A DNA stretch of 30,827 nt from Candidatus Methylomirabilia bacterium (GTDB taxonomy: Bacteria > Methylomirabilota > Methylomirabilia > Rokubacteriales > CSP1-6). Position 1 is the stretch's first letter, and each line of letters starts with the position of its first letter. The notes beneath the pieces are model-generated. The model was not told the origin of the DNA. It saw only the letters and a list, made by a program, of their open reading frames with translations, and made no database searches. The translations under genes and the position numbers were made by a program. The stretch covers positions 1 to 30,827 of the forward strand of contig JBGPIS010000001.1 of the NCBI GenBank assembly GCA_041484965.1, given 5' to 3'. This document shows, piece by piece, positions 7,563 through 15,184 of the stretch.

Positions 7563-9402
<1,840 letters not shown>

Positions 9403-9410
<8 letters not shown>

Positions 9411-11286
9411 TCGTCTGAGCTCCTTGGGGACCGGGAGTCCCGTTGTCGAGCGACTGGGCGACGCCACCCGTGATCCCGTACACCGCGGCGCTCTCCTGAT
9501 GGAGCGCCCGCAACTCGTCGGTCGCCGTCACCGCCGCGCCGGTCTTGGCCTGGACGTCTGCGATGGACTGGCTCACCTCGCGCGCCCGCCGGAGCCGCTG
9601 GCTGCGCTCGAGCCGCTTCTGGAACTGTTCGATGCTAACCCGGACGTCAAGCGAGAGGAACTCGTCGACGAGCAGCGCGGCCAGGACCGAGCGCGCCTCG
9701 TCGGTGGGGATGTCGGTCATGAGGCTCTCCGCGGGCGCCTCGGGCCGGAGCTTGAGCGTCGCTACGATTGCGCGGAGCGGGACATGGCCGACGTCCTCGG
9801 CCTCCGCGATCATCGACAGGAGCGCCTGGCGCGCCTCCATCGAGTGGAGGAGCAGCACGACCAGGTCGCGCTCGACGGAGGGCGGCCCCGAGGGCGCCGC
9901 GCCCGTCCGCGCCGGGGCGGGCACCAGCGGCCTCCGGAGGGAGGCCTGGAGCCGCTGGGCCTCGATCCAGAGCTGGGTCGCGTCCACGCCCAGCTTGGTG
10001 GCGGCTTCGCGCGAGAGCGCGGTCGCCTCCTGGGCGTCGCCCACCTTCGCGAGCAGGAGCGCCGCGCGGGCGAACGCGTTGGCTCGCGCGCGCGGGCCGG
10101 TCGCGCCCGCGGGGTCGGTGATCGCGCGGTCGAGGGCATAGGCGAGGAGGCTCCGCGCGGCCGCGACGCGCTCCTCGAAGGCGGCGTCGCCATACGCTCT
10201 CAAGAACGTGTCGGGGTCGTGGCCGGCCGGCAACAGCGCCACCCGGAGTCGCAGCGCGCCCCCACCCTCGAAGGCGCCGCTGCGGTTGACGCTCCACGCG
10301 AGGCCGCCGCCCGTCGGCTCGAGCAGCTCCTCGGCACGCTCGGCCGCCTTCTGCCCGGCCGCGTCGGCGTCGAAGAAGAGGACCGCCTCATCGCAATACC
10401 GCCTGAGGAGGCCGAGCTGTGCCTGCGTGAAGGCGGTGCCCAGCGCGGCGACCGTCTCGGTGAAGCCGTGCTGGTGGGCCATGAGGCAGTCCACGTAGCC
10501 CTCGACGAGCAGCGCGCGGTTCTTCGTCTGGATCGCCGGGCGCGCGACGTCCGCGGCATAGAGGAGGTTGCCCTTGGTGTAGAGCGGTGTCTCGGGCGAG
10601 TTCAGGTACTTCGGCTGCTCGTCACCGAACGCGCGCCCCCCGAAGGCCACGACCCGGCCCTGGAGGTCGCGGATTGCGAAGAGGAGCCGGCCACGGAAGC
10701 GGTCGTAGACGCCGGTGCGGTTCTCGCGCTGGATCGCGAGCCCCGCGGCGACGAGCGCGTCCTCGGCGACCTTCTCGGACCGCATGTGGCTGAGCAGCGC
10801 GTCCCAGGCCTCGGGGGCCAGACCGAGGCCGAAGCGCCGGGCGATCTCGGGATCGATTCCGCGCCCCGCGAGGTAGGCGCGCGCGCGCGCGCCGGCCGGC
10901 AGCCAGAGCTGCTCCGCGTAGAACCGCGCGGCCAGCTCCATCACGCGCAGCAGCTCCTCGCGGGCGCCCTCGCCCGGCTGGCCGCCGCGCTCCTCGGGGA
11001 GCGCCACGCCCGCCTGCCTGGCGAGCGCGCGGACGGCCTCGGGGAACGAGAGCTTGTCCTGGCGCATGAGGAAGCCGAACGCGTCGCCGCCGACGCCGCA
11101 GCCGAAGCAGTGGAAGATCCCCTTCTTCGGATTGACCATGAACGACGGCGTCTTCTCCACGTGGAAGGGGCAGAGGCCCTTCCAGTTCGCGCCGGCCTTC
11201 CGGAGGTTCACGAATCGGCTGACGAGATCGACGACGTCCACGGCGGCCCGGATATCGTCGAGGACCGCCTGGGAGTATGACGCCAT
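9403..11286 (-). CDS. dnaG: DNA primase
   Basis: [17 protein letters not shown] zinc finger, [20 protein letters not shown] and FDAD, HDPD. Overlaps the rpoD start by 8 nt. Confidence 0.97.
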
Positions 11287-11311: not shown

Positions 11312-13681
11312 TCAGCTGACCTTTAGCGCGGCGACGGTCGCGCCCGTGCCGCCCTCGGAGGGCGCGCCGTCGCGGAACGACTCGACGAGCGGGTGCACCG
11401 CAAGCAGATCGCGCACCGTCTTCCTGAGCGCGCCGGTGCCCTTGCCGTGCACGAGGCGCACGGTGGCGAGCCCCGCGAGGAACGCGTCGTCGAGATAGTG
11501 CTCGACGCGGTCGCGCGCCTCGTCGGTGGTCTGGCCGATCAGGCGGAGCTCGGGGGCGACCGCGGACTTCTCCGGCAGGGTGATCCGCGCGCGCGGCGCC
11601 GGAGGGCCTTGAGCGACGATCGGGGTCAGCGCCTGGAGGGGCACGCGCACGGTGAAGGTTCCCGACCGTACCGTCGCGGTCGTCCCGGCGATCGCGAGCA
11701 GCTCGCCGCGGATCCCGAGGTGCTCCGCCGCGACCGTCGCCCCGGGCGCGAGCTCGGCCGGGGCGCTCGACGCCGGGGCGGGGGCGATCGCGTCGACGCG
11801 CGCGGCCGCCTCTCGGACGCGCCGCCGGCTCTCCTCGAGCGACGGGCGGGAGCGCTCGGCGCGCTTGAGCTTGTCCCACTCGGAGGCGAGGGCGCGGCGG
11901 ATGTCGGTCAGCAGCGTCGCGGCCTCGGCCTTCGCCCGCAGGACGATGGTCTGTGCCTTCCGTTCGGCGGCGGCCTCCGCTTCACGGGCGGCGGCCAGGC
12001 GGGCGGCGGCTTCGCTCTCGCGGCGCTCCATGGCGATCGTGCGCTCCGCCTCGCTGCGCGTGTGCGCGTCGAGCCAGGCGATGAGCTCGCTCATCCGCGC
12101 GGCATCCTTCGAGCGGTGGGCCTCGGCGCGCGCGATCAGCTCGGGCGTGAGCCCGAGCCGCGCGGCGATGGTCAGCGCGTAGCTCTGGCCCGGGTGACCG
12201 TAGCGCAGCCGGAAGGTCGGCGCGAGCGTCGCCGTGTCGAACTCGACGGCGGCGTTGCGCGCGCGGGGATGCGTGGCGGCGAAGGCCTTGAGGGGCTCGA
12301 GGTGCGTCGTGGCGATGACGAGCGCGCCGCGCTCGGCGAGCTCCTCGAGGATCGCCTGGGCCAGCGCCGCGCCCTCGTCGGGGTCGGTGCCGGCGCCCAG
12401 CTCGTCGAGGAGGACGAGCGAGTGCTCGCCCGCCGCCTCCAGGACCTCACGGACCTGCTTCACGAACGCCGAGAAGGTCGAAAGGTTCTCCGCCACCGAC
12501 TGGTCGTCGCCGATGATCGCGTGGAGGTCGGTGAAGACCGGCAGGCGCGAGCCCTCGTCGGCCGGCACGTGGCAGCCGACCTGGGTCATCAGCGCGAGCA
12601 GCGCCGCGGTCTTCAGCGCGATCGTCTTGCCGCCGGCGTTCGGTCCGGTGATGACGAGCAGCGGGCGGTCGGCCGTGAGCTCGATGTCCACCGGGATGAC
12701 GGGCTTGGCCGGGTCCTTCCAGCTTTGGGCGAGCAGCAGCGGGTGGCGGGCGTTCCTGAGCGAGACGGTCCGGCCGGTGTCGATGACCGGCAGGGTCGCG
12801 CCCATCAGCTCGGCGGCGGCCGCGCGCGCGAAGACCCAGTCGAGCTCGCCGATCGCCGCCACGAGCCGGGCGAGATCGTCCGACCGCTCGCGCACGGCGT
12901 CGCTCAGCGCGGCGAGGATGCGCGCGGTCTCGTGCTCCTCCTCGCGCACGGCTTGCACGAGGTCGTTGTTGGCCTCGACGACGTGCTCGGGCTCGACGAA
13001 GAGCGTCTGGCCGCTCTGCGAGCGGTCGTGGACGATCCCGCGGACGCGGGCCCGCGCCTCGGCCCGGACGGGGAGGACGTAGCGCCCGTGGCGGATCGTG
13101 ACGTAGCGGTCGGTGAAGAGCCGCTCGGCCTCGCTCCCCTGGAGGGCGCGCTCGAGCTCGGTGGCGAGGCGCCGGCGCCGCTCGCGGATCTCGCGCCGCA
13201 GGCGCTTGAGCGGCGGACTCGCGTCGTCGACGACGGCGCCTGCATCGTCGAGCGCGCCGCGCAGCCGGTCGCTGAGCTCGGGCATTCGCGGCAGCGAGTC
13301 GGTGAGCGTGGCCAGGTCGGGGCTCGCCGGCCGGACGGACTTGCCGTAGGCGATGAGCCGGGGACCCGCTTCGACCAGGGGGATGATCTGGACGAGCTCC
13401 CCGCCGTCGAGAACGCTGCCTGCCACGGCGCAGCGGTCGAGGACGGGGCGGATGTCGGGAGCGCTCTCGAGGGGGAGGGGCCCGGAGGTGGCCAGCGCCA
13501 GCCGGGCCTGGCGCGTCAGCTCGAGAGCGGCCTGGACGTCGCGGGGGTCGAAGAGCGGCTCCGCCGCCGCCGCCCGTTCGCGCCCCATCTCGGTTTGCGC
13601 TTCGTGAGCGAGGAGCGCGCGTACGGTGCTCCACTCGGTGCCGCGCTCCCAGGTACGGCCGGCCTCCATCCTTTGCCTCAT
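11312..13681 (-). CDS. mutS2: MutS2 (endonuclease / ribosome-splitting ATPase with Smr domain)
   Basis: GIVHDRSQSGQTLFVEP, ITGPNAGGKT, QSVAENLSTFS, LLDELGAGTDPDEG, TTH. C-terminal Smr VHGKGTGALR..EGGTGAT. Confidence 0.96.
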   Translation of the reverse strand: MRQRMEAGRTWERGTEWSTVRALLAHEAQTEMGRERAAAAEPLFDPRDVQAALELTRQARLALATSGPLPLESAPDIRPVLDRCAVAGSVLDGGELVQIIPLVEAGPRLIAYGKSVRPASPDLATLTDSLPRMPELSDRLRGALDDAGAVVDDASPPLKRLRREIRERRRRLATELERALQGSEAERLFTDRYVTIRHGRYVLPVRAEARARVRGIVHDRSQSGQTLFVEPEHVVEANNDLVQAVREEEHETARILAALSDAVRERSDDLARLVAAIGELDWVFARAAAAELMGATLPVIDTGRTVSLRNARHPLLLAQSWKDPAKPVIPVDIELTADRPLLVITGPNAGGKTIALKTAALLALMTQVGCHVPADEGSRLPVFTDLHAIIGDDQSVAENLSTFSAFVKQVREVLEAAGEHSLVLLDELGAGTDPDEGAALAQAILEELAERGALVIATTHLEPLKAFAATHPRARNAAVEFDTATLAPTFRLRYGHPGQSYALTIAARLGLTPELIARAEAHRSKDAARMSELIAWLDAHTRSEAERTIAMERRESEAAARLAAAREAEAAAERKAQTIVLRAKAEAATLLTDIRRALASEWDKLKRAERSRPSLEESRRRVREAAARVDAIAPAPASSAPAELAPGATVAAEHLGIRGELLAIAGTTATVRSGTFTVRVPLQALTPIVAQGPPAPRARITLPEKSAVAPELRLIGQTTDEARDRVEHYLDDAFLAGLATVRLVHGKGTGALRKTVRDLLAVHPLVESFRDGAPSEGGTGATVAALKVS

Positions 13682-13735
13682 TCGCTCCCGCTCTGGATCA
13701 CGGGAGTGCCGGCGGCGCGTCCAGGAGTGTGGCGG

Positions 13736-13807
13736 CTAATCGGATATCCGTTCCCGCCGCGTGGCCTTCTTGCGAGCCGCGAGGGCTTTGCGCTTCCGCT
13801 GGGTCAC
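13736..13807 (-). CDS. rpsU: 23-aa bS21 (rpsU) C-terminal-like peptide; truncated gene or pseudogene
   Basis: GGAGGGGGGAG SD, then GTG ACC CAG CGG AAG CGC AAA GCC CTC GCG GCT CGC AAG AAG..TAG = MTQRKRKALAARKKATRRERISD, matching the KRKxKAxAARKR tail of bS21. Sits at the head of mutS2-dnaG-rpoD. Confidence 0.65.
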   Translation of the reverse strand: MTQRKRKALAARKKATRRERISD

Positions 13808-13847
13808 CCTGCTCCCCCCTCCGGGACGCCACCCGCTGGATAAAAAG

Positions 13848-13860
13848 CAACTATATACCA
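13848..13860 (-). promoter_or_regulatory. Putative -10 region for the rpsU-like/mutS2/dnaG/rpoD transcript
   Basis: AT-rich TGGTATATAGTTG on the minus strand (TATATA or TATAGT) in an otherwise very GC-rich context. Confidence 0.5.
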
Positions 13861-13893
13861 TGCGACCCACCGTCGGGCAATCGAGCCGGGCCC

Positions 13894-13902
13894 TGCTATA
13901 CT
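13894..13902 (+). promoter_or_regulatory. Putative extended -10 (TGcTATACT) for the antiporter
   Basis: TGnTATACT lies 40 nt upstream of the GTG at 13943. Confidence 0.55.
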
Positions 13903-13942
13903 CGCCCGGCGCGACGCCGGACCCCGGGGGGGACGCTCGACC

Positions 13943-15184
13943 GTGACGACCGCCGGCCCACTGCCTGTTTCCACCGTCCTGCCGTTCGTCGCCATGTTGC
14001 TCGCGATCGCGATCTGCCCGCTCTGGGTGGCGCACTGGTGGGAGTCGAACCGCAACAAGTTCGTCGTCTCGGCGGTGCTGGGCCTGCCGATCCTCGTGCT
14101 GTACCTCGTCCGCGAACCCGGCGCGCTCGTCGGGATGGCCGGGGAATACGTCTCGTTCATCCTGCTGCTCGCGGCCCTGTACGTGATCTCGGGCGGTATC
14201 CTCCTGCGCGGCGACCTCGCCGCGACGCCGCTCGTGAACACCACGTTCCTCGCGGTGGGCGCGGGGCTCGCCTCGTTGATCGGCACCACCGGCGCCTCGA
14301 TGCTCCTGATCCGCGCGCTGCTCCAGACCAACCGCGAGCGCACCCAAGTCAAGCACACCGTCATCTTCTTCATCTTCCTCGTCTCGAACATCGGCGGCCT
14401 GCTGACCCCGCTCGGCGACCCGCCGCTCTTCCTGGGCTACCTCCAGGGCGTCCCGTTCGTCTGGACGCTCCGGCTCTGGCCGCAATGGCTCCTGATGGTC
14501 GGCGTGCTCCTGGTGACGTACTTCGTCTGGGACACGGCGCTCTACACGCGCGAGCCGCTGGCGGCGATCCGCCGTGACCGGGCGCAGGTCGAGCCGCTGC
14601 GGATCCGCGGTCGCCTGAACGCGCTCTGGCTCGGCGGCGTCGTCCTCGCGGTCGCGTTCCTGCACGCGCCGTGGCGCGAGGCCGTCATGGTGGCCCTGGC
14701 CGCCGTCTCCGTCTGGCGGACGCCGCGCGAGCTCCGTCGCGCCAACGGCTTCACCGCCTACCCGATCGTCGAGGTGGCGGTGCTCTTCTTCGGGATCTTC
14801 CTCACGATGCTCCCCGCGCTCGAGCTCCTGCGGCTCCGGGGCGGTGAGCTCGGCGTGCGCGAGCCGTGGCAGTTCTTCTGGGCGTCGGGCACGCTCTCGT
14901 CGTTCCTCGACAACGCTCCCACGTACCTCACGTTCCTGGCGCTCGGGCAGGGGCTCGGCCTCGCGAAGGAGGTCGCCGGAGTCCCCGAGGCGATTCTGGC
15001 CGGGATCAGCGTCGGGTCGGTCGCGATGGGCGCGAACTCCTACATCGGCAACGCACCGAACTTCATGGTGAAGTCCATCGCGGAGGAGCAGGGCGTGAAG
15101 ATGCCGAGCTTCTTCGGCTACATGCTCTATAGCGGGCTCGTCCTGATCCCGCTGTTCATCATTGTGACCGTCGTCTTCTTCTAG
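13943..15184 (+). CDS. Ion transporter superfamily membrane protein (putative Na+/H+ antiporter / CitMHS-like)
   Basis: About 11-12 hydrophobic segments. IGTTGASMLLIR, SNIGGLLTPLGDPPLFLGYL, SSFLDNAPTYLTF, YIGNAPNFMVKSIAE. Confidence 0.85.
   Translation: MTTAGPLPVSTVLPFVAMLLAIAICPLWVAHWWESNRNKFVVSAVLGLPILVLYLVREPGALVGMAGEYVSFILLLAALYVISGGILLRGDLAATPLVNTTFLAVGAGLASLIGTTGASMLLIRALLQTNRERTQVKHTVIFFIFLVSNIGGLLTPLGDPPLFLGYLQGVPFVWTLRLWPQWLLMVGVLLVTYFVWDTALYTREPLAAIRRDRAQVEPLRIRGRLNALWLGGVVLAVAFLHAPWREAVMVALAAVSVWRTPRELRRANGFTAYPIVEVAVLFFGIFLTMLPALELLRLRGGELGVREPWQFFWASGTLSSFLDNAPTYLTFLALGQGLGLAKEVAGVPEAILAGISVGSVAMGANSYIGNAPNFMVKSIAEEQGVKMPSFFGYMLYSGLVLIPLFIIVTVVFF

What the first reader, a model, noticed from the sequence alone, without database searches (positions are those of the whole stretch)
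13736..13860. A 23-aa mini-bS21: only the C-terminal basic helix survives at the rpsU position
Seen: AT-rich -10 region, strong SD (GGAGG), GTG, then MTQRKRKALAARKKATRRERISD, upstream of mutS2-dnaG-rpoD. No other minus-strand frame between the putative promoter and this ORF encodes the missing part. Established: rpsU heads the rpsU-dnaG-rpoD operon; full bS21 is about 60-70 aa and ends in EKPS.KRK.K..AARKR; its C-terminal part lies near the 16S anti-SD. Inference: an in-frame deletion fused the first codons (MT) to the tail, removing the N-terminal helix. This is either a pseudogene, an assembly collapse, or a functional minimal peptide. With the several leaderless-type genes in this window, reduced bS21 function is a testable hypothesis.
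Basis: partly seen in the sequence, partly recalled or inferred. Interest (0 to 1): 0.68.

Follow-up and report, generated by a model that had tools for sequence, protein, structure and literature searches.

The report
Freshly truncated spare ribosomal protein gene
One of this soil/sediment bacterium's two genes for ribosomal protein bS21 has recently lost 41 of its 64 codons in a clean in-frame deletion. This leaves a 23-codon stub that is most likely a young relic, because a second, intact bS21 gene sits elsewhere in the genome.

Summary
At window 13736-13807 (-) a GTG-started 23-codon ORF sits at the rpsU position, upstream of mutS2-dnaG-rpoD. Relatives (Rokubacteriales, phylum Methylomirabilota) carry a nearly invariant 64-aa bS21 ("A" copy) at this spot. 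The window lacks exactly 123 nt (codons 3-43). The promoter-like box, 5'UTR, strong SD, GTG-ACC and the native stop are all kept. What remains is the C-terminal helix (AF2: H41-63).

It is not an assembly collapse. Contigs from other public runs span the junction without gaps. A roughly 97%-identical strain in a groundwater run still has the full-length gene, so the deletion is very young.

The claim that only the tail survives is wrong for the genome as a whole. A second intact bS21 ("B", 67 aa) lies on contig C74. Across the order, copy number varies from 0 to 3. Whole genera appear A-only or B-only. The A copy has decayed or gone missing independently in at least five other lineages. The SD-next-to-tail layout occurs in 1 of 183 genomes.

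Best reading (about 0.78): a recent, tolerated pseudogenisation of a redundant paralog. A functional mini-peptide is not excluded, but nothing supports it.

The parts
13736..13807 (-). Relic of rpsU-A: GTG start, 23 codons and TAG. It equals codons 1-2 fused to codons 44-64 of the ancestral 64-aa bS21.
   Evidence: AF2 of the intact relative places helix 3 at residues 41-63.
13801..13804 (-). Deletion junction: ACC|CAG (T2|Q44). 123 nt (codons 3-43) are missing. A 2-nt microhomology (CC) is shared by ACC and the ancestral GCC.
   Evidence: Alignment A1. The loose end of the X12 contig after 13803 reads ...EKPSA|QRK in a roughly 97%-identical strain.
13808..13850 (-). Retained 5' leader. It holds the conserved TTTATCCAG (13844-13836) and a strong purine-rich SD (GGAGG at 13822-13818, G-run to 13812).
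   Evidence: Invariant columns. The same elements occur across the order. No conserved fold was found and there was no Rfam match.
13851..13880 (-). Inferred promoter: TTGCCC (13880-13875), 17 nt, then TG-G-TATATA (13860-13852).
   Evidence: Invariant across four genera. The motif recurs in most relatives. The consensus scanner did not call it, so this is inference from conservation.
11312..13681 (-). mutS2 (MutS_V + Smr). It starts 54 nt after the relic's stop. This spacing is similar to the closest relatives (53-57 nt in most, though it ranges from -25 to +57 across the loci).
9403..11286 (-). dnaG primase, intact.
7563..9467 (-). rpoD (sigma-70 regions 1.1 to 4), intact. The exact start was not determined.
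13943..15184 (+). Divergent CitMHS_2 transporter gene that bounds the intergenic region. The same neighbour is seen in relative L162.

Best explanation
This is the young relic of rpsU-A, one of two bS21 paralogs that are widespread in Rokubacteriales. A single 123-bp deletion with CC microhomology at its ends removed codons 3-43. That stretch comprises the N-terminal strand, helices 1 and 2, and the nearly invariant YEKPS turn. The promoter, leader, SD, start codon, helix 3 and the native stop were left intact.

Shown:
- the deletion itself;
- its presence in independent assemblies;
- its recency;
- the intact second paralog (rpsU-B on contig C74);
- the dispensability of either paralog across the order.

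Inferred:
- ribosomes of this lineage now use bS21-B only;
- the stub is probably still transcribed and translated into a +8-charged 23-mer with no maintained function;
- because the deletion is in frame and leaves all signals and the stop in place, expression of the downstream mutS2-dnaG-rpoD genes is undisturbed, which is why the allele was tolerated.
For: 1. Position and sequence. 24 of 29 relatives' loci examined carry an intact 64-aa bS21 directly upstream of mutS2. Its tail is almost identical to the stub.

2. One clean gap. The DNA alignment shows a single 123-nt gap with conserved flanks.

3. Independent assemblies. A 1787-nt X1 contig covers 13300-14300 with 0 gaps and 6 substitutions. 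A 401-nt X7 contig covers 13495-13895 with 0 gaps and 4 substitutions. X9 is identical up to 13811.

4. Recency. X12 holds a strain with 5 differences in 180 nt whose sequence continues into the full-length gene.

5. Second paralog. The own genome has a full-length second bS21 scoring 69.7 bits against PF01165 and 67.9 bits against TIGR00030. Its orthologs in relatives are 68-90% identical, with the closest relative G007 also closest for this gene. It lies in a conserved rbp / small ORF / rpsU-B cluster. So it belongs to this lineage and is not contamination.

6. Either copy is dispensable. Among 97 relatives that are at least 90% complete, copy number is 0 in 2 genomes, 1 in 37, 2 in 43 and 3 in 15 (counted from the table). 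Whole genera look single-copy A-like or B-like by HMM score.

7. Repeated loss of the A copy. It is degraded or missing on separate branches of a MutS2 tree, each next to an intact sister: G024 (20-nt frameshifting deletion), G010, G002 and G028. G003, which is not in the tree, also lacks it.

8. Not a conserved layout. An SD directly upstream of the tail is found in only 1 of 183 genomes of the order.

9. Literature. McNutt et al. 2023 (PMC9976891) note that bS21 paralog number varies among close relatives, implying frequent gain and loss.
Against: The stub keeps every expression signal and an open frame, and it shows no disabling mutation. No substitutions were seen in it among the deletion-bearing strains. 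However, only about 2 were expected in this segment, which gives P of about 0.15, so this is uninformative.

The genome is 87% complete, so the full bS21 complement is not known.

The F. johnsoniae work shows that the C-terminal part of bS21 contributes strongly to 30S binding: bS21 lacking residues 43-64 occupies only 11-16% of particles. A helix-3 peptide could therefore retain some affinity for the ribosome.
Confidence: 0.78

Rival explanations
1. The stub is kept as a translated leader ORF. On this reading, the in-frame outcome was selected because continued ribosome traffic from the strong rpsU SD to the native stop protects the transcript. It would also preserve coupling or anti-polarity for the essential downstream genes (mutS2-dnaG-rpoD). 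The peptide itself would be irrelevant.
For: The promoter-like box, leader, SD, start and stop are all untouched. The 54-nt spacer to mutS2, including a conserved GGCACTCCCGTGATCCAG block, is the same as in the closest relatives.
Against: An in-frame outcome has a 1 in 3 chance expectation. Other lineages tolerate out-of-frame or 5'-deleting lesions of the same gene (G024, G002) or its complete absence (G028, G003). So there is no general need for a translated ORF here.
Confidence: 0.1
2. The stub is a functional mini-protein. The 23-aa basic helix would be made and would bind the 30S platform or the 16S 3' tail, or another RNA. It would act either as a minimal bS21 or as a competitor of bS21-B that tunes SD-dependent initiation.
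For: Expression signals are intact. The retained segment is helix 3. In Flavobacterium this is the part of bS21 that contacts the 16S 3' tail and is needed for stoichiometric binding (PMC9976891).
Against: The layout is unique to this lineage among 183 genomes. The allele is too young for any test of selection. An older analogous remnant in G010, a 14-codon ORF, has changed three residues that are invariant in intact genes. The peptide gives no profile match. An intact paralog already fills the bS21 role.
Confidence: 0.08
3. The truncation is an assembly or binning artefact: a collapsed segment or a chimeric join.
For: The source is a fragmented metagenome-assembled genome of 428 contigs. Other Rokubacteria with full-length rpsU co-occur in the same samples.
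Against: Separately assembled contigs from runs of different studies cross the junction with no gaps while differing from the window at flanking sites (X1, X7). There is no repeat at the junction beyond 2 nt.
Confidence: 0.02

Closest known systems
Variable bS21 (rpsU) paralog sets in bacteria, e.g. the three Francisella tularensis paralogs and the lineages listed by McNutt et al. 2023 (PMC9976891; PMC13374519)
   Same: More than one bS21 gene per genome. Copy number differs among close relatives, implying frequent gain and loss. Paralogs are presumed to be interchangeable on the 30S subunit.
   Different: Here one paralog is caught just after inactivation, as an in-frame stub with all its signals. 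Nothing is known about differential roles of the A and B copies in Rokubacteriales.
E. coli-type rpsU-dnaG-rpoD macromolecular synthesis operon
   Same: rpsU heads a cluster containing dnaG and rpoD on one strand.
   Different: mutS2 is inserted between rpsU and dnaG. Co-transcription was not tested here. The rpsU at the head of the cluster is truncated.
Engineered bS21 lacking residues 43-64 in Flavobacterium johnsoniae (PMC9976891)
   Same: The break point falls at almost the same residue (42/43 versus 43/44), between the N-terminal body and the C-terminal basic region.
   Different: It is the reciprocal product. The engineered protein keeps the N-terminal body and loses the tail. The window keeps only the tail. 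The Bacteroidia-specific Tyr54 mechanism is not implied here.

Membership tests
Ribosomal protein bS21 (PF01165 / TIGR00030) | Profile match at or above the curated cut-off | tested here: not met
   The 23-aa product gives no Pfam or NCBIfam hit, even at E<=10. The intact paralog on C74 scores 70.6 and 67.9 bits.
Ribosomal protein bS21 (PF01165 / TIGR00030) | N-terminal strand, helices 1-2 and the conserved G27 and Y38-E-K-P-S42 positions | tested here: not met
   Residues 3-43 are deleted.
Ribosomal protein bS21 (PF01165 / TIGR00030) | Descent from an rpsU gene (orthologous position and alignable sequence) | tested here: met
   Same place upstream of mutS2. 19/21 identical to relatives' tail, E=2e-10. 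Flanks align.
Ribosomal protein bS21 (PF01165 / TIGR00030) | Incorporation into the 30S subunit | not testable with these tools
   Needs ribosome purification with mass spectrometry, or a structure.
Relic (pseudogene) of a redundant paralog | An intact paralog is present in the same genome | tested here: met
   G000:C74:7464-7625(-), 67 aa. Lineage-consistent identity and synteny.
Relic (pseudogene) of a redundant paralog | The gene is dispensable or lost repeatedly in relatives | tested here: met
   Independent lesions or absence in G024, G010, G002, G028 and G003. 37 of 97 near-complete genomes are single-copy.
Relic (pseudogene) of a redundant paralog | Relaxed selection visible in the relic itself | tested here: inconclusive
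   No substitutions in the stub among deletion-bearing strains, but only about 2 were expected. The allele is too young.
Conserved small-ORF protein | The truncated form is conserved across species | tested here: not met
   The SD-next-to-tail pattern occurs in 1 of 183 genomes of the order. The junction pattern was absent from genome and metagenome contig collections.
Conserved small-ORF protein | Evidence of translation | not testable with these tools
   One RNA-type run holds 27% of 11 sampled words.

The most novel reading that the evidence does not exclude
The helix-3-only peptide is made from the retained strong rpsU signals and still docks at the bS21 site near the 16S 3' tail, competing with bS21-B. 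A fraction of ribosomes would then be effectively bS21-less, with altered use of Shine-Dalgarno sequences. That would be a natural minimal modulator of initiation.
Probability: 0.06. Interest if true: 0.7.

Novelty: new member of a known kind. Interest (0 to 1): 0.24.

Why it matters
The main value is as a clean, dated snapshot. A ribosomal-protein paralog is caught immediately after inactivation, with a near-identical strain that still carries the intact gene.

Rokubacteriales carry two conserved bS21 types, one linked to mutS2-dnaG-rpoD and one linked to an RRM protein gene. Different lineages have lost one or the other. That makes the group a natural system for asking whether bS21 paralogs are interchangeable.

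It does not change what is known about bS21 or translation. For annotation, the stub should be flagged as a truncated rpsU and not as a new small protein.

Tried and rejected
- Pfam and NCBIfam scans of the 23-mer found nothing, even at E<=10.
- An Rfam scan of 13500-14100 found nothing.
- The consensus promoter/terminator scan called no site. The promoter is therefore inferred from conservation only.
- A degenerate junction pattern found nothing in genome contigs or metagenome contigs.
- I looked for a closer full-length relative through the protein database. The best candidate by leader and tail similarity (P0010, L162) was only about 79% identical in DNA, so it did not help date the event.
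- RNAalifold on 19 leaders showed no conserved structure.
- An RNA-run search gave one weak holder that could not be examined.
- Many "1-43 only" matches looked like truncations. They were a segmentation effect: all of those genes are full length.
- I first miscounted the ancestral gene as 63 aa and the deletion as 120 nt. The correct figures are 64 aa and 123 nt.

Full report
**What is in the sequence.** On the minus strand, a GTG at 13807-13805 opens a 23-codon frame, (M)TQRKRKALAARKKATRRERISD, that stops at 13738-13736. GGAGG at 13822-13818 with a following G-run precedes it. Further upstream lies TGGTATATAG (13860-13851). After a 54-nt spacer come mutS2 (MutS_V + Smr, 11312-13681), dnaG (9403-11286) and rpoD (7563-9467). 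A CitMHS_2 transporter gene is transcribed divergently from 13943. The window is about 70-75% G+C, so long spurious frames overlap the region. The stub's own frame stays open far upstream for that reason.

**Homology and the deletion.** I took the mutS2 loci of 40 relatives and read their upstream regions.
- 24 of the 29 relatives' loci fetched carry, at the same place, an intact and almost invariant 64-aa bS21. It begins (M)TKVIVEPDESF and ends ...EKPSVRRKRKALAARKKAKRRER-x-SD.
- Eighty more loci from the public genome collection show the same protein. Their titles name the group as Candidatus Rokubacteria / Rokuibacteriota / Methylomirabilota.
- A DNA alignment with three genera shows conserved sequence through the AT-rich box, the leader, the SD and GTG-ACC. 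A single 123-nt gap follows, and conserved sequence resumes from the RKRK codons to the stop and on into mutS2.
- tblastn of the intact protein against the window's 730 nt upstream of mutS2 finds only the tail (19/21 identical, E=2e-10) and nothing for residues 1-43.
- A search of the whole assembly with residues 1-43 finds only the separate paralog described below.
- AlphaFold2 on an alignment of intact proteins (pLDDT 86) gives helices at 12-26, 28-37 and 41-63.

The stub is therefore codons 1-2 fused to nearly all of helix 3.

**Is it real, and how old is it?** I laid Logan contigs of four public runs from different studies on 13300-14300.
- X1 has a 1787-nt contig (depth 13.7) that covers the whole kilobase with no gaps and 6 substitutions.
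- X7 has a 401-nt contig over 13495-13895 with no gaps and 4 substitutions, all inside mutS2.
- X9 has a 519-nt contig identical to the window that ends at 13811.
- The deletion allele therefore exists in separately assembled populations that differ from the window at flanking sites. This excludes an assembly collapse.
- X12, a groundwater sample, shows no deletion allele. Its 210-nt contig matches 13624-13803 with 5 differences and then runs on into sequence whose reverse complement reads ...KKRQHYEKPSA, followed by QRK.

Three conclusions follow from X12:
- A strain about 97% identical still has the full-length gene.
- The glutamine after MT is ancestral (PSAQRKRK), not a later mutation.
- The deletion ends share only the dinucleotide CC (ACC / GCC).

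The event is a single, recent, microhomology-flanked deletion. Because it is so young, the intact frame says nothing about function. Only about 2 substitutions were expected in the stub and leader among the deletion-bearing strains, and none was seen (P about 0.15).

**The second paralog.** The Pfam bS21 model finds a full-length gene elsewhere in the same genome (G000:C74:7464-7625, minus strand). It encodes 67 aa and scores 69.7 bits. Scanning the translated protein gives 70.6 bits (Pfam) and 67.9 bits (TIGR00030).
- Its orthologs in relatives are 68-90% identical. The nearest relative by MutS2 (G007) is also the nearest for this gene.
- It lies in a conserved cluster with an RRM-type RNA-binding protein gene and a small ORF of about 74 aa.
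- It therefore belongs to this lineage. The organism is not left with only a tail.

**Evolutionary context.**
- Among 97 genomes of the order that are at least 90% complete, I count 2 with no bS21 match, 37 with one, 43 with two and 15 with three (table).
- By HMM score, some genera look uniformly single-copy of the mutS2-linked type (about 75-79 bits). Others look uniformly single-copy of the other type (about 64-69 bits). This typing by score is an inference calibrated on the loci I inspected.
- At the mutS2 site, the A copy is damaged or missing in other lineages too:

| Genome | State of the A copy at the mutS2 site |
|---|---|
| G024 | 20-nt deletion that shifts the frame just after EKPS |
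| G010 | Keeps the AT-rich box and a 14-codon remnant (MARKKAGQRTRFSR) that has changed three residues invariant in intact genes |
| G002 | Lacks the leader, start and first codons and carries many substitutions |
| G028 | Has other sequence upstream of mutS2 |
| G003 | Has other sequence upstream of mutS2 |

- All four of these with a checked B locus (G024, G010, G002, G028), and also G003, keep the B copy.
- On a MutS2 tree, G024, G010, G002 and G028 sit on separate branches next to lineages with an intact A copy.
- A pattern requiring an SD 4-36 nt upstream of the tail codons matches only the window among 183 genomes of the order.
- McNutt et al. 2023 had already noted that the number of bS21 paralogs varies among close relatives, implying frequent gain and loss.

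**Mechanism.** The best-supported account is ordinary: loss of a redundant paralog, seen early.

Shown:
- the deletion, its reality and its youth;
- the intact paralog;
- the dispensability of either copy.

Inferred:
- Ribosomes here use the B form.
- The stub is probably still transcribed and translated, since all signals are intact.
- The resulting +8 peptide has no maintained role.
- The allele was tolerated because it leaves the signals and spacing upstream of mutS2-dnaG-rpoD untouched.

A variant in which the in-frame ORF is selected as a leader for the downstream genes is possible. It is not needed, because other lineages tolerate out-of-frame lesions or complete loss. A functional mini-bS21 cannot be excluded. 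In F. johnsoniae the C-terminal part contacts the 16S 3' tail, and its removal drops occupancy to 11-16%. Even so, nothing found here speaks for that reading.

**Comparison and verdict.**
- The stub descends from bS21 but fails the family's defining tests: there is no profile match and no N-terminal body.
- It is best filed as a truncated rpsU paralog.
- The kind of event is known, and this is a new and unusually clean example.
- Interest is low to modest. Earlier notes of this scan on the same window concern other loci and did not bear on this one.

Noticed in passing
window 13836-13880 (-); L004-L032 upstream of rpsU: The rpsU-A leader is conserved at DNA level across two families. It has TTGCCC, 17 nt, TG-n-TATA(T/A)A, then CGTTTAYCC and a long purine/G-rich SD (GGAGGGGGG or GAAGGGGGGA). 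Gene callers often start the protein inside the -10 box (MVYS...). The very strong SD recalls the SD-based rpsU autoregulation described in Bacteroidota. That link is only a resemblance.
   Followed up: partly
window 13682-13710 (-): The rpsU-mutS2 spacer contains a block, GGCACTCCCGTGATCCAG-n-GCGGG, that is conserved in other genera. Its ATCCAG..GCGGG part echoes the ATCCAGCGGG of the rpsU leader. It could be an internal promoter or a regulatory site for mutS2-dnaG-rpoD.
   Followed up: no
G000 contig C74 (L001:1462-2254, minus strand) and L062-L079: The intact second bS21 gene lies directly downstream of a conserved ORF of about 74 aa and an RRM-type glycine-rich RNA-binding protein gene. 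From memory, cyanobacteria have a cold-regulated rbp-rpsU cluster. If that is comparable, the B paralog may be stress-regulated.
   Followed up: partly
L019 (G010) about 80 nt upstream of mutS2: This is a second, independent tail-only remnant. It keeps the AT-rich box and an SD-like GGAGAGGG, plus an ATG-started 14-codon ORF, MARKKAGQRTRFSR. The sequence has diverged from the invariant tail.
   Followed up: partly
order-wide: bS21 copy number in Rokubacteriales ranges from 0 to 3. Genus g14 consistently has three copies, and two genomes at least 90% complete show none. The third copy and the apparent zero-copy genomes were not examined.
   Followed up: no
window 11312-13681 (-): MutS2 (Smr domain) is placed between rpsU and dnaG throughout the order. 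B. subtilis MutS2 is a rescue factor for collided ribosomes (PMC10897456, listed), so the rpsU-mutS2 linkage may be functional and not incidental.
   Followed up: no
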